From: an uncultured Gammaproteobacteria bacterium
Lineage (GTDB): Bacteria > Patescibacteriota > Microgenomatia > Levybacterales > UBA12049
Direction: 5' to 3'
NCBI GenBank assembly: GCA_964416505.1
Contig: CAYQEJ010000003.1
Span: 54,034-118,033, forward strand
Length of the DNA: 64,000 bases
Shown here: in pieces, positions 21,165 through 45,474 of the stretch
Numbering within the stretch: the first letter of the stretch is position 1
Layout: every line of letters begins with the position of its first letter
The notes under the pieces: model-generated
The model's input: only the letters and a program-made list of their open reading frames with translations
What the model was told of the DNA's origin: nothing
Database searches by the model: none
Translations under genes and position numbers: made by a program

Positions 21165-21298
21165 TATACTGTCATTTTTTTCCTGCCAGTAGCTCTTCTT
21201 CTTTTTAAAACTTTTCTACCATTAGAATCACTCGATCTTGCAAGAAATCCATGCTTCCTAGCTCTTTTTACTTTTTTAAGTTTTCTAAATTTTTCCAT
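21164..21298 (-). CDS. rpmH: Ribosomal protein bL34 (45 aa; absent from the ORF track)
   Basis: Manual translation of the reverse complement 21298->21164 gives [44 protein letters not shown]. This matches the bL34 consensus (..KR.RSHGFRARM.T.NGR.VL.RRRAKGRK.LTV). Its stop overlaps the rnpA start, the classic rpmH-rnpA arrangement. Confidence 0.85.
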
Positions 21299-21361
21299 TT
21301 TATAAGAATAAAGTATATCAAAGTGGTTTATTTTTTAAAAGTGGTAAAAAAAGAGATACTT

Positions 21362-21427
21362 TTATCCACTTTTGCATTATTGAGGGAAGTAGGTTCGTTT
21401 GGTAAACTTTTAGCTATGTTATCCACA
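21362..21427. promoter_or_regulatory. DnaA-box cluster upstream of, and overlapping, the dnaA start
   Basis: TTATCCACT at 21362-21370 (8/9 match to TTATCCACA), a perfect TTATCCACA at 21418-21426, and weaker AGTGGT(A/T)A repeats between them. Confidence 0.4.
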
Positions 21428-22765: not shown

Positions 22766-22808
22766 GGCAAGTTTTACACATGGAAAAAACAAAAAAGTTA
22801 TTAACAGG

Positions 22809-22912
22809 TAATCCACATAACTTATCAACAAGATATCCACATTTTTCTGAGGCTGGCTCGTTGCTTTTTTCCACTTTTCCTGGTAACCTACTACAACTAC
22901 AAATTTATATAT
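22809..22912. promoter_or_regulatory. Candidate oriC core in the dnaA-dnaN spacer: three DnaA boxes and an AT-rich unwinding stretch
   Basis: TAATCCACA (22809-22817), ATATCCACA (22833-22841) and TTTTCCACT (22867-22875) are all in the same orientation. The run aaatttatatatatg follows at 22898-22912. Confidence 0.5.
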
Positions 22913-24029: not shown

Positions 24030-24455
24030 TTATTTAAAACCACTTTTTAGGTTAGTTAAATCAGTTTTTTTAAGATTATATTCGTTAAGTAATTTAGATA
24101 ATTCTGTATTCGCCTCTAAAGTCCTAGATCTATTGGAAAGAAATAAGAAAGAGTCATTTAAATAATCATAACTGAGTTCGAATAGATCGGATTTATAAGG
24201 TAGGCTTCTGATCAATACTCCCAACTGTTTAGGTGCTATTTGAGCATCAGCATCTTTTTGTGTAACACCTAAAGAATCAGTGTGATAAGGTTCTTTTTCT
24301 GTCTCATCAAAGACTGGTGTAGGAGCAATGCTGCTAATATTTTTAGTTTCTTTAGGAAGAACTGTGACCACGATGCTTATAAAAATAAGATAAAAAATTA
24401 TGGCTAAAAATATTAAAAATAGAATCTTATGTTTTTTTAAAAGTTCTTTAATCAT
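24030..24455 (-). CDS. Bitopic membrane protein (N-terminal TM anchor, about 100-aa extracytoplasmic domain); last gene of the T4SS-like operon
   Basis: TM helix ILFLIFLAIIFYLIFISIVVTVL. Overlaps the upstream gene by 8 nt. Its stop is 1 bp from the dnaN stop, so the two are convergent. Confidence 0.5.
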   Translation of the reverse strand: MIKELLKKHKILFLIFLAIIFYLIFISIVVTVLPKETKNISSIAPTPVFDETEKEPYHTDSLGVTQKDADAQIAPKQLGVLIRSLPYKSDLFELSYDYLNDSFLFLSNRSRTLEANTELSKLLNEYNLKKTDLTNLKSGFK

Positions 24456-25224
24456 TTTTTCTTATTGGAACTAATGACATAAACCTCGTGTCATATCTGT
24501 TCATTTGTGTTAGGGACGGGTGATAAATAAAATTACTTGAATTACATTTATCGCTTGCGGAAGCCACTATAAGTGTTTCGTTTTTTGGATTAGCGCCTAG
24601 CACAACAAATGTATGACTACATCTTCCTTCGCATCCGACCCAATTTTCTGCTGAGCCTAGGATATACCACCCTTGATTTGTAAATCTTTGAATTGCTTCA
24701 AGATCAGCTTTAGTCAAATGTCTTCTGTTATCTCTGTCTCTGCCTCCTTCTATAAGATCAACTTGCGCTCTTTTTAACCCTATGCTTCGTAAAAAGACAG
24801 TATCTACAATTGAAAATGGACTAGTTCCTACGTATCCATAAGCATTTCCCGGTTGCCAAGCAAAACCTTTTTCGGTAAATAATTCAGCTACTGTAGCAGG
24901 ATTTGCAACTCCTCGATCACTGGGGCGAGCTTTTAGTCCATAAGTCGCAAGTATCATGGCTATAGATGATGGTCCACAGCCTGAGCTGCCGACCGTACCA
25001 GTATCATAACGATTATTACCCCATGGAGAATCAAATTGACAGTAGTAAACAAAATTCCCGGGTTTTGTACCCGTGCTGGTGTCTCCTCCGAAATCTGATC
25101 CTTTACCAACCACCGTGGTTACAGTGTCGTGAGCTATACCCGTTTGCTGTGCAAAAGCAGGAGACAGAATAATTAAGCTGAGAAGTAAATTAATTAGGAA
25201 AAGAAGAGAGAGGATTTTCTTCAT
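24448..25224 (-). CDS. Secreted papain-like cysteine peptidase (Peptidase_C39_2/CHAP-like), candidate cell-wall hydrolase of the T4SS-like cluster
   Basis: Signal peptide MKKILSLLFLINLLLSLIILSPAFA. YYCQF...SSGCGPSSIAMILATYG contains the candidate catalytic Cys in the C39-like context, and ...CSHTFVVLG contains the candidate His. Confidence 0.55.
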   Translation of the reverse strand: MKKILSLLFLINLLLSLIILSPAFAQQTGIAHDTVTTVVGKGSDFGGDTSTGTKPGNFVYYCQFDSPWGNNRYDTGTVGSSGCGPSSIAMILATYGLKARPSDRGVANPATVAELFTEKGFAWQPGNAYGYVGTSPFSIVDTVFLRSIGLKRAQVDLIEGGRDRDNRRHLTKADLEAIQRFTNQGWYILGSAENWVGCEGRCSHTFVVLGANPKNETLIVASASDKCNSSNFIYHPSLTQMNRYDTRFMSLVPIRKND

Positions 25225-25262: not shown

Positions 25263-25784
25263 CTAACACCCAGAAGGGAGTGGGTTAAATTGGGAATTTC
25301 TTGGAAAATCATTTGCAGCAAAGGCACCTAGATAAAACCTTACTGGTAAATTGCATAGTCCGTTTTTTGAAAAACCTTGATTAAGTAGATAATTTTCTGC
25401 TTCAGTTTTGGCTAGATCAATGTCTTTTGAATTAATTTCTATTTCGAAGTCATCTAGAGACTCAACGTATTGGATAATAAAATTTTCATTTTGAAAAATA
25501 ACTCCTGATTTGTTGTCTAACGGCGTTAAGATTTTGGCTTTTGCATCTAGGTCTGAAGGAGGAAGTGGCTGTCTAGTAGTTAGTTTTATTAAGGATTTTC
25601 CTAAGCTTCCAGGTTCATAGTTAACAACTGGCTTTGTGTATATTTGCTTCGAAGGGGTAGGTATTGGTTTTTGCGATGATCTTAAGTCGGAAAGAGTAGA
25701 TGCTATAGCAAGTAAAACAAATATTACTACTAAAATAACCGCAGAAATCAGATATATTATATTTTTTTTATTCTTTAAGTTCAT
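25263..25784 (-). CDS. Bitopic membrane protein (VirB8-like topology)
   Basis: N-terminal TM IIYLISAVILVVIFVLLAIA followed by an approximately 140-aa external domain. No sequence motif to confirm a VirB8 fold. Confidence 0.4.
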   Translation of the reverse strand: MNLKNKKNIIYLISAVILVVIFVLLAIASTLSDLRSSQKPIPTPSKQIYTKPVVNYEPGSLGKSLIKLTTRQPLPPSDLDAKAKILTPLDNKSGVIFQNENFIIQYVESLDDFEIEINSKDIDLAKTEAENYLLNQGFSKNGLCNLPVRFYLGAFAANDFPRNSQFNPLPSGC

Positions 25785-25785: not shown

Positions 25786-28053
25786 TTACCTTATTGTATT
25801 ATATTCACCGTTTGTGCAAAGTTCAGGTGCGCCTCTGCAAACATTGGTTTCGCATTGCCAATAATCGAAATCTAAATTTCTTGGTTCAAGCACGATTTTT
25901 TCTCTGTCTACAGCTACTTGTATTTGTTCTTTCCACTCCACATTACCTCTATTGTAGGCAAGAGGATTGCGGTTGGAGCCCATTTGAAAAGCTCCCCAGG
26001 CTCCTTTGGGATCGGGTGTGCAAACGCTTCCATCGCTATTACATCTAAAATATGCATTGGGTCTATGGCCGCTTTCACATTCAGAAAGTAAGTACCAAAA
26101 TCTATAGTTTTTTGGATCTTTTGACTTAAGTTCATTCCCGAAATCGTTAAGTGTATAGTTGCAGCTTGGGTCTCCGAAATTTCCTTTAGGTGCGTTTACG
26201 GAATTATACTTTCCTGAGCAACTATCTCCAGTAGCAGGAGGTCCTCCGCCTCCAGTAGCGCCTAGAATAGAAATTGACACATCAAAAGTGCTATCGTCTT
26301 GGGGACGAAGAATTAAAGTAAAAGAATACATGGTTTGTTCGCCTGTTTCTGAAGGCGAATTATCCTTTAATCGCCAAGTGATTGCGCTTGAGTTTGTAGG
26401 AGATCTGTATATCCCCGTTGTGCCGCTCGGAATCAAAGTAGTCTCTTCAGGAATATCTGCGCTTACTGAAATATTTTCGATAGGGTCTACTGCATTTCTT
26501 TTATCGTAAATAACGATTATTTCATATCTCAAATCAACGCCATTGGGAGAAGATTGCGGGCCATAAATTGTATAGCTTATTCCTGCATAGCGGCTATTTG
26601 TGATTGGTTTTGTTAGATCTGAAGTGTTAAAGAAGATTTGGCCTATTATCACAAATATAAAGATTATTAGAGCTATTATGATAACAGCTGGTAAGCTAAT
26701 GGTGGTAACCGTAATCCCAATTCCTGTAATAATTTTTGCTAATACTAGAGAAATAACGCTTATCGTGGCAGCGGCTGCACTTGTAGCCACGCCTATTATT
26801 GCAGAAATTGCTGTTGTTAAAAAACCTGCGATGGAAGATAAAAGTGAGCCAAGTATTGATCTTGCAAACAGTCTTTCTAAATATCCAATTGGATCTAAGA
26901 ATTTTTTTAATTTAAAAAACTTTTTGTTTAGGTTCTTAAATCTATTAATTGATTTAGATTTAGACAGACGGTTACCTAGTCTTGTTTTGAAAAATCTTTT
27001 GTATAGCCAGTTTTGATTTTGAGTTGATTGTTGCGATTGGGATTTGCTTTGGTTGGTAGTTTGAGGAGCGTTAGCGAAATTATTTTGCAATACTGGGAGG
27101 GAGGCAGGAATAGGAGAAGTTAATGGCTGTGGTTTCGTAATCTGTGTTGGGGAAGGTTTGTTTCTTCTAAGTAAACGGGATGTGATCCCAGGATTTTGAT
27201 AGGTATATGTTATGTCTTTCTGCCTTTTCCTTTCGATAGCTGATGTTAGCTCTGGGTCATTGTATTGTGCTGCCCATTTTTTTGCATTTTGTGGAGAATA
27301 TGTGACCAGATGTTCTTCAATTTCTTCCTGCGCATTGGAAATTGCTCGTGATCGATCTAAATATCTAGCGCTTGGATCTCTACTATCATAATCTTTTGCT
27401 GTTTTTTCGATATATCTTCGTCTAGTTTCTAGATAATCAGAGTAAGTAAGATTTTTGTTTTCTAGGCTTACTTTCTCAAAAGCCAAGTCGAGTTGGGTAT
27501 TTTGAGGGTCTTTGGAAAGCCATTCGCGTGCCTTTTTAGGATCGGCTCTAACTAATAATTCATGGTATTCCCGTCGTGCTCTTTCATATGCCTCCAGTCT
27601 GCTTTTTGCAACAGGAGCATTTCTTTTTGAGGGATTTTGATTATATCTCCTGTATTCTTCCTCCCACTTTTTTGCAAAATACTCAGCATATCTATCTGCT
27701 TCTTTTTGAGATTCTTCATATGACCCCCCGCGTCTTAAAAGGTTAACACCTGCGATAATAGATCCTAAAGCTAAGCTCTGTGGATTTCTGGGGCTGGAGT
27801 TTTTATCTTTATCTTTTGACTCAATTTCTATATTTGCTCCCTGCGATCGTTGAGTATTTATGTCTTCAATGCCTTGCCAAATTCCTTGAGTATTTAAAAT
27901 CTGATTTTCAAATAAAATTTTTTCAAATGATTGCCTATTTCCAGCTCTAAAAGCATTAAATAATTGATTTTGGTCGAATCTGGATAAATTTCCAAGTTGT
28001 GAGGCTGCCCACTTAGCATTTTCTAGGCTTAATTGTTTCTCGTTTTCATCCAT
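25786..28053 (-). CDS. Polytopic membrane protein with a C-terminal Rpf/transglycosylase-like (lysozyme-fold) domain; VirB1-analogous peptidoglycan hydrolase fused to a channel-like membrane core
   Basis: 755 aa. About 390 aa of cytoplasmic Q/S/R-rich N-terminus, then at least 3 TM helices (residues about 395-470). The Cys-rich external C-terminus ends with LLSECESGHRPNAYFRCN...KGAWGAFQMGSNRNPLAY...WKEQIQVAVD...WQC, matching the CESG...G.FQ...EQI.VA...W..C pattern of Rpf-type transglycosylase domains. Confidence 0.5.
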   Translation of the reverse strand: MDENEKQLSLENAKWAASQLGNLSRFDQNQLFNAFRAGNRQSFEKILFENQILNTQGIWQGIEDINTQRSQGANIEIESKDKDKNSSPRNPQSLALGSIIAGVNLLRRGGSYEESQKEADRYAEYFAKKWEEEYRRYNQNPSKRNAPVAKSRLEAYERARREYHELLVRADPKKAREWLSKDPQNTQLDLAFEKVSLENKNLTYSDYLETRRRYIEKTAKDYDSRDPSARYLDRSRAISNAQEEIEEHLVTYSPQNAKKWAAQYNDPELTSAIERKRQKDITYTYQNPGITSRLLRRNKPSPTQITKPQPLTSPIPASLPVLQNNFANAPQTTNQSKSQSQQSTQNQNWLYKRFFKTRLGNRLSKSKSINRFKNLNKKFFKLKKFLDPIGYLERLFARSILGSLLSSIAGFLTTAISAIIGVATSAAAATISVISLVLAKIITGIGITVTTISLPAVIIIALIIFIFVIIGQIFFNTSDLTKPITNSRYAGISYTIYGPQSSPNGVDLRYEIIVIYDKRNAVDPIENISVSADIPEETTLIPSGTTGIYRSPTNSSAITWRLKDNSPSETGEQTMYSFTLILRPQDDSTFDVSISILGATGGGGPPATGDSCSGKYNSVNAPKGNFGDPSCNYTLNDFGNELKSKDPKNYRFWYLLSECESGHRPNAYFRCNSDGSVCTPDPKGAWGAFQMGSNRNPLAYNRGNVEWKEQIQVAVDREKIVLEPRNLDFDYWQCETNVCRGAPELCTNGEYNTIR

Positions 28054-28055: not shown

Positions 28056-29999
28056 TTACTTATTTTGGTCAAAATCAGAGAAGCCAGGTGCAATTTGCGG
28101 CGTCTGCGGAGGAACAAAACCTGATTGATTCATGGGACTAATGGGCGCTGGGTTTTGGTAGGGTGCTGAAAAAGAAGTCTCATTCATTATTCTTTGCTCC
28201 TCCTGTCTTCTTAAAAGTTCTTCTGGATTTGAAGTAATAATCTTGTGTTCAAACGGAGCAGATATCACTTTCATGGAAACATGACTTTGTCCTGCAAAAA
28301 ATAAACCCTCTCCGACGTTTGCTGATAAAAGTAGTTGTTTTTCCTGCTGTGTTAAATAGAAAATTTGAGACACTAAATCTATCTCAGTAGGGCTTTGTTT
28401 TAAAAGCATCTGAATGGACGAGTTTGAAAGAATTGCCTTTCCATAATCGGTGGAGAGAAAGTCCTGAACATCCTGGGTAGCTGTTGTTAGTGCAAGATAA
28501 TATTTCCTAGCTCTTTTAGCTATTCCATGGATGAAAGAGGCAGAGTCTTGGTATTTCATAAGGTACCAGGCCTCATCAAGCACTAATAGTCTTTTTTTAA
28601 GATCTTTTCTAACTCTCGTCCAAATGAAATCAAGAATTATATGCATAGCCACGGGGCGAAGCTGATCTTCGAGTCCTCTAGTTGAAAATGCAGTGAATGG
28701 ATTTTTTATATCAAAGTTTGATTGTTGGTTAAAAATTCCAGCCATGCTTCCTTTTATAAATTTCTCAAGCCTTAGTGCTAGGTTTTTAGAAATTTCATCC
28801 TCGTTTCCCAAGAGAACTTTATATAGATCTTCCATGAGAGGAGGCTTCTTTGTTTGTGTAGATGGGTCTGGTGTAATTCCTTTTTGCCTGTAAACTTCTA
28901 CTAATGCTCGATCAAGAATTGCGTCATGCGCTGCATCAAGTTCTCCCATAACGATTCTAAGAAGAGCATGGAGCGAAAGGATTTTTAATCCTAATTCATT
29001 TTCTCCTTGTTCATAGATACCAGATAAGTCGAATGGATTAATCTTGATAGGAGAGGCGGGGGTGAACTCAATATATTCTCCGCCGAGGGTTCTCGTGAGT
29101 TCCCCATATTCTCCTTCAGGATCAATTACTATGATTTCAGCGCCAAACATAAACTGTCGCATAAGCTCCAGCTTGATAAGGTAAGATTTTCCTGCTCCAG
29201 ATTTTCCGAAAACCACTTCGTTTGCATTTTCTAGAGAGTATCTGTCAAAAATGATTAATGAATCATTTAGCTTATTTAGTCCATACATTACTCCTTTATC
29301 TTGGGTGAGAGTGGCAGATGTAAACGGAAACGTTGAAGCGAGGGAAGTGGTGTCCATGTTTCTGGTCAAGAATAATTGATCGTCTGCAATTGGAATGCTT
29401 GATTTAAAACCAGCATCCATTTGAAGGGTTGCGGGTTTAGCTAGGACAAGAATTGAAGCCAGAAGTGTTTTGAGTCTTTTTGATGCCTCTTCAAGGTCCT
29501 CTTTTGTATCAGATATTAATGTAATGTAAAGGCTAAATTGAAAAAATCTTTCTATTCCCTTTGCGAGTTCTTCCTGTACCGAAAGTGCGTCTTCTAGAGA
29601 AGCTTGGACGGTAGGATCTAAGACTTTATTATTCTGTGTTTGTTCCATAAGGGTTGCTTCCATTTCGCCAATTTTTCTTCTTAGATCTTGGAGGGCATCT
29701 GGTGAAGATGTGGGATAGCAGAACATAGAAAGATTTAGTGAATGTTCAAAATCAATAAGAGGTTCAAGCCAATTAGGTGAAACAAATCTGGGGTATCCCA
29801 CAACGAAAAAAGTTTTGTGATATTTTTCTCCAATTCTAATATGCCCAAAATCAACTTCGATAGAAGAAGGGGCTATGATATCCGTAACAGAATTCATGCC
29901 TCTTTCGATTCTTTTTATTCCCTCATTTGCAGGGTGAATCGCTGCGCCAGGAATAGGATTAGTTTTTAAGCTTTGATCTTTTTTGTTAAATAGTTTCAT
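28056..29999 (-). CDS. VirB4/TrbE/CagE-family type IV secretion ATPase
   Basis: 647 aa, no N-terminal TM. N-terminal CagE_TrbE_VirB-type region (IAPSSIEVDFGHIRIGEKYHKTFFVVGYPRFVSPNWLEPL). Walker A VFGKSGAGKSYL, Walker B LLVLDEAWYLM, and C-terminal LTTATQDVQDF, typical of VirB4. Confidence 0.75.
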   Translation of the reverse strand: MKLFNKKDQSLKTNPIPGAAIHPANEGIKRIERGMNSVTDIIAPSSIEVDFGHIRIGEKYHKTFFVVGYPRFVSPNWLEPLIDFEHSLNLSMFCYPTSSPDALQDLRRKIGEMEATLMEQTQNNKVLDPTVQASLEDALSVQEELAKGIERFFQFSLYITLISDTKEDLEEASKRLKTLLASILVLAKPATLQMDAGFKSSIPIADDQLFLTRNMDTTSLASTFPFTSATLTQDKGVMYGLNKLNDSLIIFDRYSLENANEVVFGKSGAGKSYLIKLELMRQFMFGAEIIVIDPEGEYGELTRTLGGEYIEFTPASPIKINPFDLSGIYEQGENELGLKILSLHALLRIVMGELDAAHDAILDRALVEVYRQKGITPDPSTQTKKPPLMEDLYKVLLGNEDEISKNLALRLEKFIKGSMAGIFNQQSNFDIKNPFTAFSTRGLEDQLRPVAMHIILDFIWTRVRKDLKKRLLVLDEAWYLMKYQDSASFIHGIAKRARKYYLALTTATQDVQDFLSTDYGKAILSNSSIQMLLKQSPTEIDLVSQIFYLTQQEKQLLLSANVGEGLFFAGQSHVSMKVISAPFEHKIITSNPEELLRRQEEQRIMNETSFSAPYQNPAPISPMNQSGFVPPQTPQIAPGFSDFDQNK

Positions 30000-30643
30000 A
30001 TTTTCATTTTTCCAGTAACCATGGGAGTTATGATATCTTTGGATACTCCCGAGCTGCTTTCGTTGTTATAGATCTCATAAAAAAGCCTAATTAGTTCGTC
30101 TTTTTCCAAAATTTTTGATTTCAAACCGGATCTTAAAAGCTCTTGGATTATAGATGAAGATTTGGAAGTTAATAAATTTTTTGCATCTCTTATTATCGCA
30201 TCTCTGTCTCTTGAGTTTGCAATTCCTCCAGCTCCTTTTTCAAGATACGAGTACGAAATGGAGATATAAAATTTTTTATCAAGAACTGTATTTTTTTGAA
30301 CAAGTTGAGAAACGAATTCTTTATACATTCTAATGTGTTCTGAGAATGTTGGGTTAGATGCTTTCGCAGCTTGTTCCTCGAGTAGTTTTTGATAATTACT
30401 GATATCGAGTTTTCTGCTCAAAATTACTATTTGAATAGGAAAAGATAGGGAGTTGATGAGCGAAGCATAAGAGAGAATTTTTATTTCTTGTTCTTCTTTG
30501 GATTGTAATGCAAAATTTGTCGCTGTAACTTCTATAACCATACACACACTTCCTCCGGACATAAGAACTAGGCTGTCTATAATGTCCTCAATCTCTATAA
30601 ACTTTTGTGTTGTCGCTATGGTTTTTGGGGCAGAGTTTTTCAT
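29996..30643 (-). CDS. Hypothetical cytoplasmic protein (215 aa) translationally coupled between the VirB3-like and VirB4-like genes
   Basis: No TM or signal. Overlaps the VirB4-like start by 4 nt and abuts the upstream gene. No recognisable family. Confidence 0.45.
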   Translation of the reverse strand: MKNSAPKTIATTQKFIEIEDIIDSLVLMSGGSVCMVIEVTATNFALQSKEEQEIKILSYASLINSLSFPIQIVILSRKLDISNYQKLLEEQAAKASNPTFSEHIRMYKEFVSQLVQKNTVLDKKFYISISYSYLEKGAGGIANSRDRDAIIRDAKNLLTSKSSSIIQELLRSGLKSKILEKDELIRLFYEIYNNESSSGVSKDIITPMVTGKMKI

Positions 30644-31942
30644 TTAATTAAATAATTCCCTTCTTAATTCTTCCCTGGGATCTACTGAAAAAATTTCAAG
30701 CGGCATAATTGGTGTTCCGTTCGCTTCAATTTCCACGGTGTCAAACTTATTTTGTCCTTTTGGATCTTCAATAGAAACTATGTATTTCCCGTTTTGAAGA
30801 GAAGTTGCCGATGCAAATTGCCCAAGCCCATTTGTTTTAAAAGCTCTCACTGGATTGTCTTCTGGATCTTTTACCTCGACTAGAATATTTGGTAGGGGAT
30901 TCCCTCTAGGATCTTTAATGATCCCAGTTATTAGATTTGGATCTGCGGGAGCTGTGGGGAGGCCAACGCTTTTTACTAATGCAGGAGGGGCTTTTCTAAC
31001 TCTTTGGGTCTGGGGAAGAGGTTGTGCCGTAATTGGATTAAATTTCGTTTTTTCTGTTCCTTCAAGTCTAGCCTTAAGAGATAATAATTCTTTCTCAAGC
31101 GCCTCCTTTTGTCTGTTTGCTTCGATAAGCATTTTCTCAAGTTCTTCTGATTTTTGATGAGTAGTTGAGTCTGTTTGAGGAGTTGAGTTATTTTCTATAG
31201 CTTTTGCTTCAACAAGCTCTTTCTGAAGTGCGGAAACTTGTTCTTCGAGTTTTCTTTCATTTTCTTCTATTTTTTCTTCCTCCTCTTTTTCTTTGATTTT
31301 TTCAAGATCATCAAGATTCCCAGACATAATAGGTTTATTGTTGGGATCATTTAATTCGATTACTCTGCCTGGGACCTGAGTTATAGGAGTGTTTATTTGT
31401 GGTGCGCTCTGTGGCTGCGGAGCAGGAACAGGTTGAATGATTTGGGCTTGTGTTTGGATCGGGGTTTGTTGGATAGGTTGTTGATAGTTGATGGGGGTTG
31501 GTGTTTGTATCTGTGTTTGTGTTTGTAAAGGCATATTGGTAGGTGGTAGTGGAGCAGGTGTGTTAAGTTGAGGAGGAGTTGATTGGAGTACAGGATTTAA
31601 TGGTGTTTGTGGGGCACTAGGATTCATTTGTGAGAGATTTCCACCAGTTTTTCTATAGATATATTGGGTAGGGGAGAAAAGAGCTCTAATGAAATTTCCA
31701 ATCATGGTATCCATAGGTCTTCCGTCAATAGGAACAAACGCTAATGCAACACCAAGAGAGAGAAATAATACTGCTAAGGGGAGTCTAATCAGTATAAATA
31801 TCGGTAAGATAAAAAATATAAACCAGGCAATTACTGTTCCACCGGCAAGGTAGGCAAACTGCTTTACGGTCATGTTGCCAATAAGTTTAAATTGAAATCC
31901 TGTAATGTCTTGTGGTATTGGATGGTTTTCCATAGGCAGCAA
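30644..31942 (-). CDS. PrgI/VirB3-like two-TM N-domain, followed by a P/Q/T-rich linker, a coiled coil and a C-terminal beta-sandwich (carboxypeptidase-regulatory-like) domain
   Basis: The N-terminal 100 aa are MLPMENHPIPQDITGFQFKLIGNMTVKQFAYLAGGTVIAWFIFFILPIFILIRLPLAVLFLSLGVALAFVPIDGRPMDT, a hydrophobic hairpin as in PrgI/VirB3-family proteins that precede VirB4. The C-terminus IKDPRGNPLPNILVEVKDPEDNPVRAFKTNGLGQFASATSLQNGKYIVSIE is Big/CarbopepD_reg-like. Confidence 0.45.
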   Translation of the reverse strand: MLPMENHPIPQDITGFQFKLIGNMTVKQFAYLAGGTVIAWFIFFILPIFILIRLPLAVLFLSLGVALAFVPIDGRPMDTMIGNFIRALFSPTQYIYRKTGGNLSQMNPSAPQTPLNPVLQSTPPQLNTPAPLPPTNMPLQTQTQIQTPTPINYQQPIQQTPIQTQAQIIQPVPAPQPQSAPQINTPITQVPGRVIELNDPNNKPIMSGNLDDLEKIKEKEEEEKIEENERKLEEQVSALQKELVEAKAIENNSTPQTDSTTHQKSEELEKMLIEANRQKEALEKELLSLKARLEGTEKTKFNPITAQPLPQTQRVRKAPPALVKSVGLPTAPADPNLITGIIKDPRGNPLPNILVEVKDPEDNPVRAFKTNGLGQFASATSLQNGKYIVSIEDPKGQNKFDTVEIEANGTPIMPLEIFSVDPREELRRELFN

Positions 31943-32070: not shown

Positions 32071-32700
32071 TTAATTTTGACAAGTGTAGATTATATCTCC
32101 CGCATGATTAAGCTTTTTGCATGTTCTGTTAAGAGCACAGTATCCATGAGGATGCGCTTCGCTGCAAGGAAATTGGCATGTGTAGTGACTACCTGTATCG
32201 TTTGGCACGCAGATTCTACCCGTAGGGCATATTCCGTCCGGATGTTGATTGTTGCATCTATAAGCGACGCTATCGGGAACACATTGATCAAATCCAAATG
32301 TTGAAATGCAGGCGTTTACTCCAGTTAGTCTTATTATGAAAGGTAATATTATTACTGATAATAAAATTAAGGTTAATCCCAAAATAGAAAAAGTAAGTGT
32401 TTTTTTGGCCCCATCTGCTTTTTTTGCATCACCTCCAGAGCTAACAAATTTAAATCCGGAAATTATAATCATGGCTACTGCGACAATTCCTGCGAAAATA
32501 AACACCCAGTAAATTACGTTTCCTAGGATAATTGGTAGGCAGTTAAGCGTTGCTACCTGGTTCGATCCGCCAGTTAGACATCCAGATCCTCCAAGAGGGG
32601 TAAAATTTGCAGCAAAAACATTTGGGGTGAAAAAAAGAAATCCAGAAATTAACAAAAAGAAAAATAAAAACTTTTTCACTGATAAATAAAAGCGTAACAA
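32071..32700 (-). CDS. VirB2/TrbC-like pilin paralog 1 with a Cys-rich C-terminal extension
   Basis: Signal peptide, hydrophobic helix, loop SGFKFVSSGGDAKKADGAKK, second hydrophobic helix, then a 75-aa tail containing 11 Cys. Confidence 0.5.
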   Translation of the reverse strand: MLRFYLSVKKFLFFFLLISGFLFFTPNVFAANFTPLGGSGCLTGGSNQVATLNCLPIILGNVIYWVFIFAGIVAVAMIIISGFKFVSSGGDAKKADGAKKTLTFSILGLTLILLSVIILPFIIRLTGVNACISTFGFDQCVPDSVAYRCNNQHPDGICPTGRICVPNDTGSHYTCQFPCSEAHPHGYCALNRTCKKLNHAGDIIYTCQN

Positions 32701-32721
32701 AGAAGATGTTAAATTACAAGA

Positions 32722-33141
32722 TTAACGAGGAGCTACTAGTGTAGGGAGAGTGAAGCTGCTGTTAAGTAGGCTTCCGATTCCGAAGAATTGTAATGCGAGG
32801 TTGATGATGAAGTAGGAAAGAAATACTAGTACTAATCCTACCAGTGCAGCTACGATCATTCCTCTTGCAGCATCTACTTTTCCTTTATCTCCACCTGATG
32901 TAATCCATTTAATTCCACCATATACTAGAAAACCTAAAGCTAGCAATACAGCCACTATAAATAATAGAAGAATTATTGAAGAAACTAGTGGGCCAATTCC
33001 TGCGTTACCCATATTGCAAAGAGTTGTAAATCTTCCGCCTACGCAGAGATCAAGTGTACCGCCACCTACAGCAGCAAAAGTTTTAGGGGTAAACGTTAAG
33101 AAAGAAGCGATCGATAACGATAGAGCAGTTAATTTTTTCAT
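32722..33141 (-). CDS. VirB2/TrbC-like pilin paralog 2
   Basis: Signal peptide ...TFA|AVGGG, TM1, loop WITSGGDKGKVDAARGMIVAA, and TM2. This is the classic conjugative-pilin topology. Confidence 0.55.
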   Translation of the reverse strand: MKKLTALSLSIASFLTFTPKTFAAVGGGTLDLCVGGRFTTLCNMGNAGIGPLVSSIILLLFIVAVLLALGFLVYGGIKWITSGGDKGKVDAARGMIVAALVGLVLVFLSYFIINLALQFFGIGSLLNSSFTLPTLVAPR

Positions 33142-33195
33142 TACTTATTTGATCGTATTGTGTTTTTAATTGTTTGTCAAGTACCTTTTCTGAAT

Positions 33196-33513
33196 CTAGA
33201 CTATTTGTCCAATTCCTAAAAACCAACCTAAAACATTTATTATCAAAAAAGAGGAAAGAGCAACTAGAAGTCCTATAACTGCATATGTAATTTTTTTTCT
33301 TGCAGCGTCTACTTTTCCTTTATCTCCACCTGATGTAATCCACTCAATGCCTCCCCAGACAAGAAAAGCGAGTGAGGCGAGTGTTATTAATACAAAAGCC
33401 CAGGTAAGACCATTTGTAATTACGTTTTTAAGAGTATTGAGGCCGCCTGTGGGCATCCCTGCGACAGGTTCTATAGAATATGAGCCGGGTAAGTTAAATG
33501 CAATTTTTTCCAT
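33196..33513 (-). CDS. VirB2/TrbC-like pilin paralog 3
   Basis: Shares the near-identical loop WITSGGDKGKVDAARKKITYAVIG with paralog 2, and has two flanking hydrophobic helices. Confidence 0.55.
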   Translation of the reverse strand: MEKIAFNLPGSYSIEPVAGMPTGGLNTLKNVITNGLTWAFVLITLASLAFLVWGGIEWITSGGDKGKVDAARKKITYAVIGLLVALSSFLIINVLGWFLGIGQIV

Positions 33514-34517
33514 TATCTCCCAAATCCTGGTAATCCTAGAATATCACGAGTTATTAATTCAAGTATAACTAAAGAAAATATAATAAATATAAATCCTACT
33601 ATTGCTGCCGTAAGCTGTTCTCTGGCATTTTTTACCTTATCAGGATCACCTTGGGATGTCATAAGTTTGTATCCGGCGACCAAGATTATTATGAATATTA
33701 TTCCGCCTCCAATACTTAAAACAAATCCAAGTGCCCATCTGGTAAAGTCAGTTGCTCCAGTGCTAACCATTCCAAATGCTGTTCTGACTCTTAAACATCC
33801 GCGCGCGTCATTATAGAAATTTCCATTTTTTTCGCAAGGTAAAGATAGAGGAGCATTCTTGGCATAATTTATGACTGAAGGATCATACAGGCTTCCGGCT
33901 ACGCATGTGCCTGTTCTACAGTCTCCTGTGGTAAGCGAATTGCAATAAAAACCCTCAGAGCACGTTCCCCTTACTCTCCCTCCTTTAGAACAGATTTTAT
34001 AATCGTTTGATGTTGGATCTATTTCGCAAGAATTATTTTGTCCTGGGCCCGTGGGTTCAGGGGAAGGATTTTGACCACCAGCCGTCCTAACTACTATGCC
34101 ATTGCTTCTGCAGGATGGTTGACAAGTGCCGTCTTCTTTGTAAACGCAGAGTCTAACCGTATATGTGCCAGCGCCTAAATTTCTTAGATCTCCTAGGGTA
34201 TGATCAGTCTCGCTAAATGTAACACCTGAATCTGGGTTTATAAGAATATCTTCAGATACGCATCCTTCTTGAAATTTTCCAGCTTTTGTTAATGAATCAA
34301 GAGGGCATGGGCCAGTATTTGAAGTATTAAATGCTACATAAAGACGTGTTCCTGCATCGCGGATATTGGTGAACGTAATGCTTTTAAATTTTCCTACTTG
34401 AAGTTGAGTGGGATCAGTCGTAAAAGTACAAGCATCATCTGGCCCGGCATATGCAATGGTAGTTTTTAGAGCGAAAAAAGCAATGAAAATTAACAAGGGA
34501 AAAATTATTTTCCTCAT
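33513..34517 (-). CDS. Secreted Cys-rich domain protein with a C-terminal VirB2/TrbC-like pilin module (paralog 4)
   Basis: Signal peptide, then an approximately 230-aa Cys-rich extracellular domain, then a pilin-like TM1-loop-TM2 with a degenerate MTSQGDPDKVKNAREQLTAAIVGF loop. Stop and start overlap with paralog 3. Confidence 0.5.
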   Translation of the reverse strand: MRKIIFPLLIFIAFFALKTTIAYAGPDDACTFTTDPTQLQVGKFKSITFTNIRDAGTRLYVAFNTSNTGPCPLDSLTKAGKFQEGCVSEDILINPDSGVTFSETDHTLGDLRNLGAGTYTVRLCVYKEDGTCQPSCRSNGIVVRTAGGQNPSPEPTGPGQNNSCEIDPTSNDYKICSKGGRVRGTCSEGFYCNSLTTGDCRTGTCVAGSLYDPSVINYAKNAPLSLPCEKNGNFYNDARGCLRVRTAFGMVSTGATDFTRWALGFVLSIGGGIIFIIILVAGYKLMTSQGDPDKVKNAREQLTAAIVGFIFIIFSLVILELITRDILGLPGFGR

Positions 34518-34552: not shown

Positions 34553-35875
34553 CTATGGAGTGAATTTGAATCCGCGGCCTTTAACTGTTTGGATATGTGT
34601 TGGGGAAGAAATGTCTTTTTCAATTTTCTTTCTTAGTCTAAAAATAAGTTGATCTAAAGCTTGCTCTGTAACCCCGGCAGTAGAGGATAAATCGCCCCAA
34701 ACTGAGGATATGATTTCGTCTCTTTCAACTATTTTTTCAGGATTTAAAATAAAAAATTTAAGTAATTTAAACTCTGAAGAAGTAAGTCCTTCAGACAAAA
34801 CTATTTCGCCAATTCTAATTTCCTTAGCCGCTTCATCAAATATTATCTTTTCTTGTTTTTCGGAAATTTCTTTTTTAGCAAATTCTTCCAAGAGAGGAAC
34901 TGCAAATTTATTATTTTTAATAAGTCCTACAGCCACTAAATGAGATGATTCAGAAGCTTTTTTATTTGCGATTAGACTTTGTTCGTATGGAGAGAGAGAA
35001 TTCCAGATTTCGTAAAGAACTGATTTTACTTTAGAATTATTTTCTAAAAATTCTCTGACATCATCTTTTTTATCATTTAAGATACAGGCTTCAATGCTAA
35101 CAAGCCATAATTTACCTAATTCTCCTGTTAATTCACTAATCTTTTCAAGCGTTTTTTTATCCACATTTTTTCCACTATTTTTCTTTAGATAATCAAGTCT
35201 AAATTGTTGAATTTTTTCATCTCCTAGAGATAGGTAAACTAAATTTCCTGTTAAAAATTCATAAAAGGAAGTAATTATTTCATTTCCTGCGGTTTCTTCT
35301 AATGGCCGAGAAAGAGGAAATATGCAGGAAAAACGATATTTTGCTCTATCTCTCAATACTCTTAAGTTATCAAAGAAGATAGGCTCAAGTACTCCAACGT
35401 ATTCTTCGAATCTATCAAAAAGTAGAACTATAGTTAATTCTTTTTCAAGACATAAATAGTCAATCGTTTTTTTTAGACCCTGGAAGATCACAAGTTCATC
35501 GCCTGATTTTAGACTCTCATCAAATATTTTTTTAAGAGCTTTATGCTCTTCGTTCATTTTTCTCTCCGCTAGAGAATCCAAGATTTCCAAAAACATATAC
35601 TTTGTAGATTCGGAAAGTGGCCTTTTTTTAATTTCTGCAAAATTCATCATTACGAAATGAAACCACTTTGTGTTTTCTTTAAGGTGAAGTTCGCGAGCTT
35701 TTGAATTGTATGCGAGAATTCTTAAGATGTTTGATCTTCCAACTCCTGGAAGAGAAATTACCTGAGCAGAATTTCCAACTCTTACAAAAGAAAGAATTTT
35801 CTCTATCTCAGAATATCTTGCGTCTTCAGGGTAAAGTGATTCGAAGTGTTTTGGTTCCATAGCTAGGTAAAACAA
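34553..35875 (-). CDS. Transcriptional regulator: N-terminal STAND/AAA-like ATPase domain, C-terminal OmpR/PhoB-type winged helix (Trans_reg_C)
   Basis: P-loop-like VISLPGVGRSNILRIL. The C-terminus ERDEIISSVWGDLSSTAGVTEQALDQLIFRLRKKIEKD....IQTVKGRGFKF matches the Trans_reg_C/CadC wHTH consensus. The domain order is the reverse of SARP/AfsR regulators. Confidence 0.55.
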   Translation of the reverse strand: MFYLAMEPKHFESLYPEDARYSEIEKILSFVRVGNSAQVISLPGVGRSNILRILAYNSKARELHLKENTKWFHFVMMNFAEIKKRPLSESTKYMFLEILDSLAERKMNEEHKALKKIFDESLKSGDELVIFQGLKKTIDYLCLEKELTIVLLFDRFEEYVGVLEPIFFDNLRVLRDRAKYRFSCIFPLSRPLEETAGNEIITSFYEFLTGNLVYLSLGDEKIQQFRLDYLKKNSGKNVDKKTLEKISELTGELGKLWLVSIEACILNDKKDDVREFLENNSKVKSVLYEIWNSLSPYEQSLIANKKASESSHLVAVGLIKNNKFAVPLLEEFAKKEISEKQEKIIFDEAAKEIRIGEIVLSEGLTSSEFKLLKFFILNPEKIVERDEIISSVWGDLSSTAGVTEQALDQLIFRLRKKIEKDISSPTHIQTVKGRGFKFTP

Positions 35876-35939: not shown

Positions 35940-38900
35940 ATGACACACGAAATAATTATGAGACCAGGTGAATTGACAGTGCAAAGGGGACAATCTACAC
36001 TGAATAAGGAGCAAAGTATTTTTATGCCAGACGCAGGAATACAAACAGAAGGAGTTCAGCCAGTAAAACCAGCTATTAGAGCTGAGGTTTTACCTTTACC
36101 TAGAGTAACAACCAGCTTGTCTTTGGAAGGACTAACCCCGACTCAGCGTGCTGACGCTTTAAGGACAACAAGGCTTCTCGAAGGGCTCGGTTTGAAGCCT
36201 GACCAAGTTACTTCCAAAGGAAGAACAGAGCAAAAAGCAGGTCAAGTTGTTGAGAATGCACAGCTTGATAGTGAAAATCCGGAAGCATCAACTAAATCGC
36301 AGGAAATTTTAGGAAAAGGAGAATTAACAGATCAGGATAGAGCTGATCTTTTTGGATTAAACGCTGGTAGAATCGCAAAAGCAGAAGAGCTACTTAAAGA
36401 TAGTCTCGGAAGAGAATTAACTGATAAAGAAAAAGAAGGAATCTTACGCGCTCATTTTGTGGGAGCAGGGGAAAAAGGAAAAAACGGAGAAGAATCCGGA
36501 GTGTTTAATGTAACACGAGAGCAGCTTTCGGAAAAAGCAAAAATATTAAAAGATGCTGGATTTGATCAGGAGCAAAGAAGGGAAATCATAGAATCAGGTC
36601 TTACTCAAATGAATCCACCACAGCCTCTTACTCCTCTGGAGGCTAGAAACCAGGCAATTCTGGCCTTAGGGAATTTAACATTAACTGGAAAGCTTTTGGA
36701 AATCAGAGATAACATTTTAAGACTTCATAATGCTGCAATTGGAAATCCAGCTGCAGGTATTCCCGTGATTAATCCAGATGGTATTACCTCTGACGCACTA
36801 ACAGCGCTTCATAGAGAATTTTATAATAAATTTAATAAAGTACTTAATAATCCAAATACACCACCGCCACCCGAAGTTCTTCTTTTTGAAAGAAGACTTA
36901 AAGAAATTGGTGATCTTGATGCAAGAACACACGAGCAGCGTGGTCCACAAGAAGATTTCCATAATGAATATGATTTCATTAGGCTGCAATTGAATAGTAC
37001 TCCTCAATTATTGCCCAATGGAGCTCCAAATCCCCAGAGGGCAATTTTGGAAGAAGAGTTAGTTTTGAGTGTAGAAAATTTTGTGGGACATGGCATAAAC
37101 CCATCCAGTGATAGTATTTATGACTCTACTCTTAAAAAAATAGTGCAAACTGATACTTTGGTAAGTGATCCTGATCTTCAGGCAAGAATTCAGTCATCTG
37201 TTCAGAGGTTGGTTATTAGAATTGTGGGAATGCCACTTCAGGACGATGTGGGAGATTTTGATATTGGGTTTTATGGTGGAATTAATTTTTCAGCAATTAA
37301 AAATTTACTTTATTCACAGTCATTGGATCCTGCATATTTTAGATCTCAGCAAGAATACAATGCCTTTAGCAACTTGAGAAGAGACCAGAACTTAAGCGTA
37401 GAAGGTCTGTACCATTCTATGAGAATAGTTCATGAAATCAATAAAATGATTGTTCAGAATCAGCTTGATGCAGCAAATCAATCGGCTCCAAACTTAGGTC
37501 CTGAAGCACTGCAAATGCTTGCCAAGACAAAAGGTGCTGGCGCGATATTTAGAATTATGGAATCTGGTCTTTTGGAACTATTGGCAAAAGATGGATACAT
37601 GGCAAAGGGTTCGTATGATGCTCTGATGGGCAAGGCAATGAGTCAACAAACTGGAAGATATGATAATTCTCAAACGTCATCGATAGCTTCACAAGTTAAA
37701 GAAATGATTAGCGCTTTAAGATCATTGCCTCCTGGTATTATTCAGGCAGGAGATTTACAGGAGTTAAGAGACATGGAAAATTGGGAAATTGATTTAGCAT
37801 TTAATCTTGGAAGAAATATGTATAACGTTTTACATAGGTCTGCGGAGCTGGCTTCATGGGGAAGGCTTCCGAAAGGACTCAAGCTTTACACAAATTCTGT
37901 TTTTGGAGGATTTAGAAATATTTATAATCCTGCCCTTCATGTTATAGAAAGGTTTAAGCCCGGCGAAGGTAGAGGAGGATACAGATTATTCCAGATGTTT
38001 ATGGATGCGATGCAAAGACGAAGAGAAAGAGAGGGATTTGGTCATATGGGGCTTAAAAAACTTCATGGAGATTTAATTAAGTATTTTGAACTGCCTTCGA
38101 TTGCAGGTATGAGAGGGTATGTCTCATCTTGGAAAGCGAACGAAGGAGTTCTTAAAGTAATCGAAACCGGTTACGCTCCAAGAGGTAGATTTGCAGATCT
38201 AGATATATTTTCGCAAGTACAACTTAGAGAAGCAGGTTCTCAGATTTTTGATAGAAATGGAGGGGTAATTACTGGAAAAGGAATTGGATATTTCCTGGAT
38301 GTAGATGCTCTTACTTTTAAAGATGGTCAAGGGAGAACATATTCATGGAAAGATTTTTCAGATGCTGAGCAAGCTGATTATTATAGATCAATTTTCTTTG
38401 AGCCAAATACAGGTGGACATGGTCATGATCCAGTGTTAAAAAGAGATATAAACATAGGATTGGGAACTCTTTATAAAACAGCACTTGGGCCAGCAGGGGG
38501 ACATGAAGCACATAAAAATCATCATCATTTAAATGAGGTTAAAGAAGAAATAAGGCGTCTTATCTGGGAAAGAGTAGGAGCGGATAATCCCCTTGCAGTT
38601 TTACCGTATCTACATAGGCTTGAATTTAGTGGTGATCATAAACCAGTTGATGTGGGCCATCACGGGACGCCGCACTTAGTAGATGTTGCAGGCACAAAAT
38701 TGCTTGAAGATATTTATGATAGGCCTGGTTGGCAAGATTTTCAAGTGAAGCTTATGCTTCTAAATGAATGGAGAATGTCAAAAATTAAACAAGGAAATAC
38801 TAATTACACATTGCAGGACGCAATAAATGAAATGGATACAGCAATGGGTGTTCAAAGAGATCCTGTGACCCATGCAATTATTCAGGGGGGAAATCAAAGC

Positions 38901-41424: not shown

Positions 41425-41425
41425 C

Positions 41426-43864: not shown

Positions 43865-43943
43865 TTTTGCTTATAAACTAAGCGCATTATAGATTTGAGA
43901 CAGAAAACAAGCTTGATATTTACCTTATAAGAAATTTATAAAT

Positions 43944-44910: not shown

Positions 44911-44912
44911 AA

Positions 44913-45002: not shown

Positions 45003-45005
45003 GTG

Positions 45006-45431: not shown

Positions 45432-45474
45432 AATATTAAGTGTTTACACAGAAAACTTCCTAGAAATTATTTTG

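What the first reader, a model, noticed from the sequence alone, without database searches (positions are those of the whole stretch)
28056..31942. VirB3-like/VirB4 core with an intervening unknown 215-aa cytoplasmic protein and a VirB3-like protein carrying a long extracellular extension
The PrgI/VirB3-like hairpin is fused to about 330 aa: a P/Q/T-rich linker, a coiled coil (EEEEKIEENERKLEEQVSALQKELVEAKA...) and a C-terminal beta-sandwich. VirB3 proteins are normally about 100 aa.

Between it and VirB4 sits a 215-aa soluble protein of unknown function, translationally coupled on both sides (abutting and 4-nt overlap). This could be a novel T4SS subunit or a chaperone.
Basis: seen in the sequence. 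Interest (0 to 1): 0.6.

Follow-up and report, generated by a model that had tools for sequence, protein, structure and literature searches.

The report
Split VirB4 and long-tailed VirB3 in CPR
This is the membrane-proximal core of the type IV secretion system already described in Patescibacteria (CPR): the "unknown" 215-aa protein is the detached N-terminal piece of the VirB4 ATPase (TrsD-like), and the VirB3-like anchor carries a conserved long tail that is more likely cytoplasmic than extracellular.

Summary
The three minus-strand genes are real and tightly coupled. They are a PrgI/VirB3-like protein (30644-31933; true start ATG, 429 aa), a 215-aa protein (29996-30643) and a 647-aa VirB4 (28056-29999).

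The 215-aa protein is not an unknown subunit. It is the detached first ~200 residues of VirB4.
- It and the 647-aa protein tile one fused 787-aa VirB4 from another Patescibacterium: residues 8-199 (38% identity, E 2e-42) and 202-783 (59% identity).
- Among 71 evaluable species-level loci, 69 are split and 2 are fused.
- The arrangement mirrors trsC-trsD-trsE of staphylococcal plasmids pGO1/pSK41.
- "TrsD homologues" beside virB4 were reported in 2025 as the most abundant T4SS component in Patescibacteria.

The VirB3-like tail is real and conserved. It consists of a P/Q/T-rich linker, a helical segment and a transthyretin-like beta-sandwich, and it was present in 76 of 76 related loci.

The tail has no further hydrophobic segment after the two-helix hairpin. 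The positive-inside rule, the known VirB3 topology and the absence of cysteines all point to a cytoplasmic location, so "extracellular" is not supported.

The locus lies beside dnaA/dnaN, with a VirB2-like pilin array upstream and no relaxase or coupling protein found. It is ordinary for this lineage; only the tail is undescribed in the literature searched.

The parts
30644..31933 (-). PrgI/VirB3-like membrane anchor with a ~330-aa C-terminal tail (429 aa from ATG 31933; the mechanical ORF starts at TTG 31942)
   Evidence: Pfam PrgI E 6.3e-11, above cut-off. 1600 homologues share the same PrgI + CarboxypepD_reg architecture. All homologues start at MENHPIPQD.
31727..31858 (-). Transmembrane hairpin (residues 29-72 in 432-aa numbering): two helices joined by a 3-4 residue loop with one K/R
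   Evidence: It is the only hydrophobic stretch in the protein. AF2 predicts helices 26-45 and 50-69.
31328..31645 (-). P/Q/T-rich low-complexity linker (residues 100-205); variable in length and sequence between relatives
   Evidence: Composition. pLDDT is below 50. The alignment columns are poorly conserved.
31052..31315 (-). E/K/L-rich helical segment (residues 210-297): two long helices, a probable coiled coil or helical hairpin
   Evidence: AF2 helices 210-252 and 258-297, pLDDT about 70-86. The segment is absent from the 273-aa PrgI of L002.
30647..30940 (-). Transthyretin-like / CarboxypepD_reg beta-sandwich (residues 335-420) plus a conserved C-terminal helix (D-x-REELRRELF, residues 421-432)
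   Evidence: Pfam PF13620 E 3.8e-7, 30.8 bits, just under the 32.3 cut-off. pLDDT is above 90. Foldseek matches the transthyretin-like domains of carboxypeptidases N/M/D at E about 3e-6 to 2e-5. Invariant columns are listed.
29996..30643 (-). TrsD-like protein: the detached N-terminal subdomain of VirB4 (Pfam TraC-like PF26593), soluble, 215 aa
28056..29999 (-). VirB4 ATPase lacking its first ~180-200 residues (647 aa; Walker A motif GKSGAGKS; P/Q-rich C-terminal tail)
   Evidence: NF045971 CD1110-family VirB4: 388.9 bits against a cut-off of 325, but covering only model positions 180-734 of 752. 59% identity to P0285 residues 202-783. It aligns end to end with pSK41 TrsE. PDB hits 4ag5 and TrwK.
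25786..28053 (-). 755-aa membrane protein directly downstream of VirB4: hydrophilic N-terminal ~400 aa, a hydrophobic block at residues 400-481, and a Cys-rich C-terminal domain. It is the positional equivalent of the VirB6-like / cell-wall-hydrolase gene.
   Evidence: No Pfam or NCBIfam hit. Hydrophobic segments and 8 Cys. A homologous ORF follows VirB4 in related loci. Positional equivalents of 462-890 aa occur in L002, L004 and L006, some with Peptidase_M23.
32071..34517 (-). Array of four VirB2-like T4SS pilin genes (209, 139, 105 and 334 aa)
   Evidence: Pfam T4SS_pilin PF18895, E 5e-6 to 1.5e-10. The same array occurs in L006.
34553..35875 (-). 440-aa protein with a C-terminal winged-helix Trans_reg_C domain, at the head of the cluster
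   Evidence: Pfam PF00486 E 1.3e-19. The same gene sits at the same position in L006.

Best explanation
The region encodes the membrane-proximal core of the chromosomal, origin-proximal type IV secretion system typical of Patescibacteria (here a Levybacteria/Microgenomatia-like genome). The VirB4 ATPase is made from two translationally coupled genes. The 215-aa protein is VirB4's own first N-terminal subdomain (TrsD-like, Pfam TraC-like). The 647-aa protein supplies the rest of the N-terminal domain plus the ATPase domain. Shown: the two products tile a fused VirB4 without gap or overlap, and split and fused forms alternate among close relatives. Inferred: the two polypeptides reassemble non-covalently into a complete VirB4. 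The detached piece docks on the cytoplasmic parts of the PrgI/VirB3-like hairpin protein, as the VirB4 N-terminal domain does on VirB3 in R388. The complex then powers extraction and assembly of the upstream VirB2-like pilins and/or substrate export. The VirB3-like protein carries a lineage-conserved ~330-aa tail: a disordered P/Q/T linker, a helical coiled-coil segment, a transthyretin-like beta-sandwich and a conserved terminal helix. This tail most probably lies in the cytoplasm (about 70%), tethered beside the VirB4 barrel. There it may act as a scaffold or docking module; that role is inferred only.
For: Split VirB4:
- NCBIfam places the 215-aa protein on positions 98-281 and the 647-aa protein on positions 292-893 of one 894-position VirB4 model. 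The 647-aa protein covers only positions 180-734 of 752 in the CD1110 VirB4 model.
- The fused 787-aa P0285 covers positions 3-735 of 752. It aligns with the 215-aa protein over residues 8-199 (E 2e-42) and with the 647-aa protein over residues 202-783 (59% identity).
- P0285 sits in the same synteny: PrgI, VirB4, large membrane protein, dnaN, dnaA.
- Of 71 evaluable GTDB species loci, 69 are split, most often with a 4-nt overlap, and 2 are fused (L056, L064), with the VirB4 part 71% identical to the window's.
- The 215-aa family always occupies the N-terminus of its proteins.
- The gene order and the N-terminal boundary equal trsC-trsD-trsE of pSK41.
- Literature: TrsD homologues are reported beside virB4 in Patescibacteria and listed as essential in Southlakia (PMC12102498).

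Tail:
- It was present in 76 of 76 related loci and in 1600 database clusters.
- Domain layout comes from AF2 and Foldseek.

Cytoplasmic side:
- There is a single hairpin and no hydrophobic segment after residue 100 (max Kyte-Doolittle 0.65).
- Mean K+R is 2.1 plus 3.5 in the two flanks against 1.0 in the loop.
- VirB3 ends are cytoplasmic and wrap the VirB4 N-terminal domain (PMC12857230, PMC9259494).
- The tail has 0 Cys. The external domains of the cluster have 5-14 Cys each.
- P/Q-rich tails also occur on the cytoplasmic VirB4 and on TrsD-like proteins of other lineages.
Against:
- The PDB profile search found nothing significant.
- The 215-aa protein does not reach the NCBIfam TrsD model at E <= 0.1. 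Similarity to pSK41 TrsD is only moderate (76.6% probability). The fission may therefore be independent of the pGO1/pSK41 one.
- For the tail, transthyretin-like / CarboxypepD_reg, CnaB and SdrD-type sandwiches and P/T-rich linkers are most often extracytoplasmic. No topology predictor or experiment was available. The Cys argument is circumstantial.
Confidence: 0.8

Rival explanations
1. The VirB3-like tail is extracellular. The hairpin would sit N-out/C-out. The linker, coiled coil and beta-sandwich would span the cell wall and stand in for the VirB8/VirB10-type scaffold that has not been found in most Patescibacteria.
For: The fold class (carboxypeptidase regulatory, CnaB, SdrD_B, pilin domains) and P/T-rich linkers are typical of surface proteins. 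VirB8 homologues are scarce or absent in Patescibacteria (PMC12102498).
Against: An N-out/C-out hairpin would leave only a 3-4 residue loop in the cytoplasm. It would also put the invariant N-terminal motif outside, contrary to VirB3 topology and its VirB4-wrapping role (PMC12857230, PMC9259494). The positive-inside count favours N-in/C-in. There is no third hydrophobic segment. The tail has no Cys while the external domains of the same cluster are Cys-rich. Cytoplasmic members of the fold exist, such as HIU hydrolases.
Confidence: 0.22
2. The 215-aa ORF is an independent novel T4SS subunit or chaperone unrelated to VirB4.
For: The local Pfam copy gave no hit and there was no significant PDB sequence hit.
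Against: It aligns with the N-terminus of full-length VirB4 proteins at E 2e-42 and with VirB4 models. Precomputed Pfam is TraC-like. Fused forms occur in close relatives.
Confidence: 0.03
3. The split is an artefact or a decaying gene: a frameshift error, a pseudogene, or a programmed frameshift within a single virB4.
For: The two ORFs overlap by 4 nt in different frames.
Against: The split is present in 69 of 71 species-level genomes with several junction types: 4-nt overlap, 1-nt overlap, abutting, and short gaps. Each ORF has its own start codon. Each also has terminal residues absent from fused forms. Both products are strongly conserved, with 63% mean column identity for the 215-aa family.
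Confidence: 0.02

Closest known systems
Patescibacteria-type T4SS (Quinonero-Coronel et al. 2025, PMC12102498; Southlakia epibionticum SEML1_0006-0019, Wang et al. 2023, PMC10633639)
   Same: The component set is the same: VirB4, a TrsD homologue beside it, PrgI/VirB3, and a VirB2-like pilin array. No relaxase or coupling protein lies nearby. The location is chromosomal, next to dnaA/dnaN.
   Different: Nothing essential differs; this is one more instance. The long PrgI tail with a CarboxypepD_reg-like domain is not mentioned in that paper (0 occurrences of 'carboxypeptidase'; no paper pairs the terms). The complementary truncation of VirB4 is only implied there.
trsC-trsD-trsE of staphylococcal conjugative plasmids pGO1/pSK41 (and traC-traD-traE of pIP501)
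   Same: The order is the same: pilin-like gene, VirB3-like gene, ~220-aa TrsD, ~650-670-aa VirB4, membrane protein, hydrolase. The window VirB4 aligns with TrsE from residue 1. The 215-aa profile aligns with TrsD.
   Different: Similarity to TrsD is remote and does not reach the NCBIfam TrsD model. The window VirB4 scores as the CD1110 type. The plasmids carry a relaxase and a coupling protein, and their TrsC is small (135 aa). The fission may be independent.
R388 TrwM(VirB3)-TrwK(VirB4) inner-membrane complex (Mace et al. 2022, PMC9259494)
   Same: A two-helix membrane anchor is paired with a VirB4 whose N-terminal domain is wrapped by VirB3. The N-terminal domain mediates membrane attachment and VirB4 dimerisation.
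   Different: TrwK is a single 823-aa chain and TrwM is about 100 aa with no tail. R388 is a diderm system with VirB7-11.
VirB3-VirB4 fusions (e.g. Helicobacter CagE, Campylobacter plasmids)
   Same: They show that the VirB3 C-terminus and the VirB4 N-terminus lie on the same, cytoplasmic side and act as a unit.
   Different: The evolutionary direction is opposite: fusion there, and fission of VirB4 here plus a non-VirB4 tail on VirB3.

Membership tests
PrgI family / VirB3-like (Pfam PF12666) | HMM score above the Pfam gathering threshold | tested here: met
   43.1 bits against a cut-off of 27, E 6.3e-11, residues 8-96 covering profile positions 1-91 of 91
PrgI family / VirB3-like (Pfam PF12666) | Two transmembrane helices followed by a C-terminal helix | tested here: met
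   A single hydrophobic block at residues 25-72. AF2 predicts helices 26-45, 50-69 and 77-89.
PrgI family / VirB3-like (Pfam PF12666) | Small size (10-15 kDa) with short cytoplasmic ends (PMC12857230) | tested here: not met
   429 aa, with about 330 aa following the PrgI domain
PrgI family / VirB3-like (Pfam PF12666) | Gene adjacent to virB4; 1:1 binding to the VirB4 N-terminal domain | not testable with these tools
   Adjacency is met: the gene lies directly upstream of the gene for the VirB4 N-terminal piece. Binding could not be modelled because no complex prediction was available.
VirB4, CD1110 family (NCBIfam NF045971) | Score above the curated cut-off; P-loop ATPase domain | tested here: met
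   388.9 bits against 325. Walker A GKSGAGKS is visible in the sequence. PDB 4ag5 at E 1e-48.
VirB4, CD1110 family (NCBIfam NF045971) | Full-length N-terminal domain in one polypeptide | tested here: not met
   The 647-aa protein covers only model positions 180-734 of 752. The missing part is the separate 215-aa protein.
TrsD/TraD family (NCBIfam NF041427) | Score above the curated cut-off (200 bits) | tested here: not met
   No hit at E <= 0.1 for the window protein. Relatives reach 31 bits or less.
TrsD/TraD family (NCBIfam NF041427) | Detectable homology to a bona fide TrsD | tested here: inconclusive
   hhalign of A1 against pSK41 TrsD: probability 76.6%, E 2.1e-5, 150 columns
TrsD/TraD family (NCBIfam NF041427) | ~200-230-aa soluble protein encoded between a virB3-like gene and an N-terminally short virB4 | tested here: met
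TraC-like domain (Pfam PF26593) | Pfam match | tested here: met
   Precomputed PF26593 on the identical protein P0001 and on nearly all 120 listed homologues. The name is given. The match was not reproduced with the local Pfam copy, which returned nothing.
CarboxypepD_reg / transthyretin-like beta-sandwich (Pfam PF13620) | HMM score above the gathering threshold | tested here: inconclusive
   30.8 bits against 32.3 for the window protein. Homologues carry precomputed PF13620. The fold is confirmed by Foldseek at E about 3e-6 with pLDDT above 90.
Patescibacteria-type T4SS locus (PMC12102498) | VirB4 + TrsD homologue + PrgI + VirB2-like pilin array, no relaxase or T4CP nearby, close to dnaA/dnaN | tested here: met
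   The same synteny occurs in L002, L004 and L006.

The most novel reading that the evidence does not exclude
The ~330-aa tail on the VirB3-like protein is an undescribed structural module of the Patescibacteria T4SS. It occurs across Microgenomatia and, in shorter form, in more distant CPR lineages. Six copies would form a coiled-coil / beta-sandwich assembly. That assembly would either cage or dock onto the VirB4 barrel in the cytoplasm, in place of the missing VirB11/coupling-protein interface, or span the envelope in place of the missing VirB8/VirB10 scaffold.
Probability: 0.25. Interest if true: 0.55.

Novelty: already known. Interest (0 to 1): 0.25.

Why it matters
Only the framing changes: the "mystery" protein is explained, so it should not be pursued as a new T4SS subunit. 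Two small points may be useful to specialists. First, split and fused VirB4 forms occur among close relatives (69 against 2 of 71 loci). This is a natural experiment on what the first VirB4 N-terminal subdomain does, and it suggests that TrsD-type proteins, for which "no function has been assigned", simply complete VirB4. Second, the VirB3-like anchor of these essential, pilus-bearing monoderm T4SSs carries a conserved tail with a high-confidence beta-sandwich. The papers I could search do not discuss it, and its cellular side is testable.

Tried and rejected
- Local Pfam scans of the 215-aa protein found nothing, at E <= 0.1 and at E <= 10. The model PF26593 seems absent from the local copy.
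- A profile search of the 215-aa family against PDB sequences gave only chance hits to inositol-tetrakisphosphate kinase at E about 0.8.
The taxon is inferred from named relatives, mostly Levybacteria/Levyibacteriota.
- Frameshift or pseudogene origin of the split was considered and rejected.
- The idea that a P/Q/T-rich linker implies an extracellular location was rejected. The cytoplasmic VirB4 here and TrsD-like proteins elsewhere carry similar tails.
- The 755-aa downstream protein had no family hit. Its VirB6/VirB1-like role rests on position and on motifs read by eye only.
- I ran no further search on the beta-sandwich alone, because the hit list would be swamped by the PrgI-fused family.


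Full report
**Observation**

The three minus-strand ORFs exist exactly where stated: 30644-31942 (432 aa from a TTG), 29996-30643 (215 aa) and 28056-29999 (647 aa). The first stop (TAA) is followed directly by the ATG of the 215-aa gene. The 215-aa stop overlaps the VirB4 start as ATGA.

An alignment of 30 homologues shows that every one starts at MENHPIPQD. The true start is therefore the ATG at 31933, giving 429 aa.

The window is a low-GC (~35%) chromosome segment. It carries dnaA (21251-22765) and dnaN (22913-24028) next to the cluster, along with housekeeping genes, five tRNAs and a tmRNA. Named relatives of the proteins are almost all Candidatus Levybacteria / Levyibacteriota or other Microgenomatia and Patescibacteria.

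**The 215-aa protein**

The local Pfam copy found nothing. NCBIfam placed it on positions 98-281 of the 894-position Mbov_0397 VirB4 model (E 9.9e-11). The neighbouring 647-aa protein covers positions 292-893 of the same model. It covers only positions 180-734 of 752 in the CD1110 VirB4 model, although it scores above that model's cut-off (388.9 against 325 bits). The two gene products are therefore complementary parts of one VirB4.

- The family is large. There are 807 word-indexed hits, and the best 120 are all free-standing proteins of 182-228 aa carrying precomputed Pfam PF26593, named "TraC-like".
- An exhaustive profile search found 2695 representative clusters. The domain always sits at the N-terminus.
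- One of these, P0285 (787 aa, Patescibacteria group bacterium), is a complete VirB4 covering positions 3-735 of 752 in the CD1110 model.
- The window's 215-aa protein aligns with P0285 residues 8-199 (38% identity, E 2e-42).
- The 647-aa protein aligns with P0285 residues 202-783 (59% identity).
- P0285 lies in the same synteny as the window: PrgI, VirB4, large membrane protein, then dnaN and dnaA on the other strand.

I then examined 80 species-representative genomes with my own ORF and BLASTP script.

- 71 loci were evaluable. The other 8 loci that carry the TrsD-like ORF end before VirB4 is complete.
- 69 of the 71 have separate genes, most often with the same 4-nt overlap (35 of 69).
- 2 of the 71 (L056, L064) have a single fused ORF of 761-779 aa. 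Its ATPase part is 71% identical to the window's.
- Fission and fusion therefore alternate among close relatives.
- The split is not a sequencing error or a pseudogene.

**Known counterparts**

pSK41 carries trsB (pilin-like), trsC (VirB3-like), trsD (227 aa), trsE (672 aa VirB4), a membrane protein and a CHAP hydrolase, in that order. The window VirB4 aligns with TrsE from its first residues. The 215-aa profile aligns with TrsD at 76.6% probability, E 2e-5.

Quinonero-Coronel et al. 2025 (PMC12102498) report the following for Patescibacteria:

- Most of these lie beside virB4, and one is listed as essential in Southlakia epibionticum.
- PrgI/VirB3 and VirB2-like pilin arrays are widespread.
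- Relaxases are mostly absent.
- The cluster often lies near dnaA/dnaN.

The window matches all of these points. The 215-aa protein is therefore already accounted for.

What my analysis adds is modest. The CPR VirB4 lacks exactly the part that the TrsD-like protein supplies. Fused orthologues occupy the same locus in relatives. Together these argue that TrsD-type proteins simply complete VirB4.

Strictly, the window protein does not meet the NCBIfam TrsD/TraD model. I file it as a VirB4 N-terminal-subdomain (TraC-like) protein that works like TrsD, not as a TrsD-family member.

**The VirB3-like protein**

Pfam PrgI is met: E 6.3e-11, above the cut-off. The protein has one hydrophobic block (residues 25-72), which AF2 resolves into two helices (26-45 and 50-69). 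A short helix follows (77-89), and then:

- a disordered P/Q/T-rich stretch (96-209);
- two long helices (210-252 and 258-297);
- a beta-sandwich (about 335-420, pLDDT above 90);
- a terminal helix.

Foldseek matches the sandwich to the transthyretin-like domains of carboxypeptidases N/M/D (E about 3e-6 to 2e-5), to CnaB/SdrD-type domains, and also to cytoplasmic 5-hydroxyisourate hydrolases.

The architecture is conserved. 1600 database clusters hit the protein, and nearly all of the best 120 carry PrgI + CarboxypepD_reg. All 76 related loci that have the PrgI domain carry the sandwich in the same ORF, with a median length of 404 aa. A more distant CPR genome with a fused VirB4 has a 273-aa PrgI with a P-rich linker and a recognisably similar C-terminal segment, by eye, but no coiled coil.

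The hairpin and the last ~125 residues are strongly conserved, including an invariant D-x-REELRRELF end. The middle of the protein is variable.

A VirB3 of 429 aa departs from the usual 10-15 kDa (PMC12857230). I found no paper that pairs PrgI with this domain, although automated annotation already names it.

**Which side of the membrane?**

This was not settled experimentally. Five lines of evidence point inward.

- Two membrane passes and no later hydrophobic segment (max Kyte-Doolittle 0.65 beyond residue 100) put both ends on the same side.
- Mean K+R is 2.1 in the N-flank and 3.5 in the C-flank, against 1.0 in the 3-residue loop.
- VirB3 proteins have cytoplasmic ends and wrap the VirB4 N-terminal domain (PMC12857230; PMC9259494). 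VirB3-VirB4 fusions exist (PMC12624023). The invariant N-terminal motif here fits such a contact.
- The tail has no cysteine. The evidently external domains in the same cluster are Cys-rich: 14 and 12 in two pilins, 8 in the C-terminal domain of the 755-aa protein, and 5 in a secreted 258-aa protein.
- P/Q-rich low-complexity tails also occur on the cytoplasmic VirB4 and on TrsD-like proteins of other CPR lineages. Such linkers are therefore not a sign of export here.

I put the cytoplasmic location at about 70%. The extracellular alternative remains open at about 20-25%. It would be the more interesting case, because VirB8/VirB10-type scaffolds are missing in these systems.

**Mechanism**

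Shown:
- the identity and complementarity of the parts;
- their conservation, coupling and synteny.

Inferred:
- The 215-aa piece and the 647-aa piece reassemble into a full VirB4.
- The 215-aa piece is the part held at the membrane by the PrgI-like anchor.
- The ATPase drives extraction and assembly of the four upstream VirB2-like pilins and/or export of unknown substrates. No relaxase or coupling protein is encoded among the large ORFs of the window.
- The tail, tethered by a ~100-residue flexible linker, could reach along or under the VirB4 barrel and serve as a scaffold or docking site. This last step is speculation.

**Verdict**

The "unknown" protein is explained and already published at family level. 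The "extracellular" claim is unsupported. Novelty is low, and the only unreported detail is the conserved VirB3 tail.

Noticed in passing
window 25786-28053 (-): The 755-aa protein directly after VirB4 has no family hit. Its N-terminal ~400 residues are hydrophilic, followed by a hydrophobic block at residues 400-481. The C-terminal domain has 8 Cys and carries an 'SECESG ... GAFQMG' motif that, by eye, resembles Rpf/SLT-type lytic transglycosylases. It may combine VirB6-like and VirB1-like roles. Positional equivalents in relatives are 462-890 aa, some with Peptidase_M23.
   Followed up: partly
window 32071-34517 (-): Four VirB2-like T4SS_pilin genes lie in tandem. Two carry large Cys-rich extra domains: 14 Cys in the N-terminal part of the 334-aa protein and 12 in the 209-aa protein.
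   Followed up: partly
window 34553-35875 (-): A 440-aa protein with a C-terminal Trans_reg_C winged-helix domain heads the cluster, and the same gene is at the same position in L006. It has no recognisable receiver domain and may be a dedicated regulator of the T4SS.
   Followed up: no
window 31933-31942: The mechanical ORF starts at TTG 31942, but all homologues begin at the ATG three codons downstream (MENHPIPQD). A 128-nt intergenic gap separates the gene from the last pilin gene.
   Followed up: yes
window 21251-24028 (+): dnaA and dnaN lie immediately beside the T4SS cluster, on the opposite strand. This is the origin-proximal placement described for Patescibacteria (PMC12102498).
   Followed up: yes
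window 24448-25224 (-), 25263-25784 (-), 24030-24455 (-): Three small genes lie between the 755-aa gene and dnaN. One is a secreted 258-aa protein with a weak Peptidase_C39_2 match (E 0.0027, below cut-off) and 5 Cys. The other two are single-pass membrane proteins of 173 and 141 aa with no family. They may be cell-wall-remodelling accessories.
   Followed up: partly
P0351, P0259, P0253 and other hits: In other CPR lineages the TrsD-like domain is followed by very long (100-500 aa) Q/P/N/S/T-rich low-complexity tails with no ATPase domain. Their purpose is unknown.
   Followed up: partly
L006 748-1110, 5886-6263, 7526-7933: Small PF05635 (23S_rRNA_IVP, four-helix-bundle) genes are interspersed in the T4SS cluster of a relative, including one between PrgI and the TrsD-like gene. 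One also lies at the edge of L002. This is unexplained.
   Followed up: no
window 35940-39653 (+): A 1237-aa ORF is divergently transcribed from the cluster and has no family hit. A 1675-aa protein with no family hit sits just upstream of PrgI in L004/L005. It is not known whether they are related or belong to the system.
   Followed up: no
[not shown]
   Followed up: no
window 49052-49441 (-): A tmRNA gene (76.9 bits) and five tRNA genes at 41338-46839 fit an ordinary chromosomal context.
   Followed up: no
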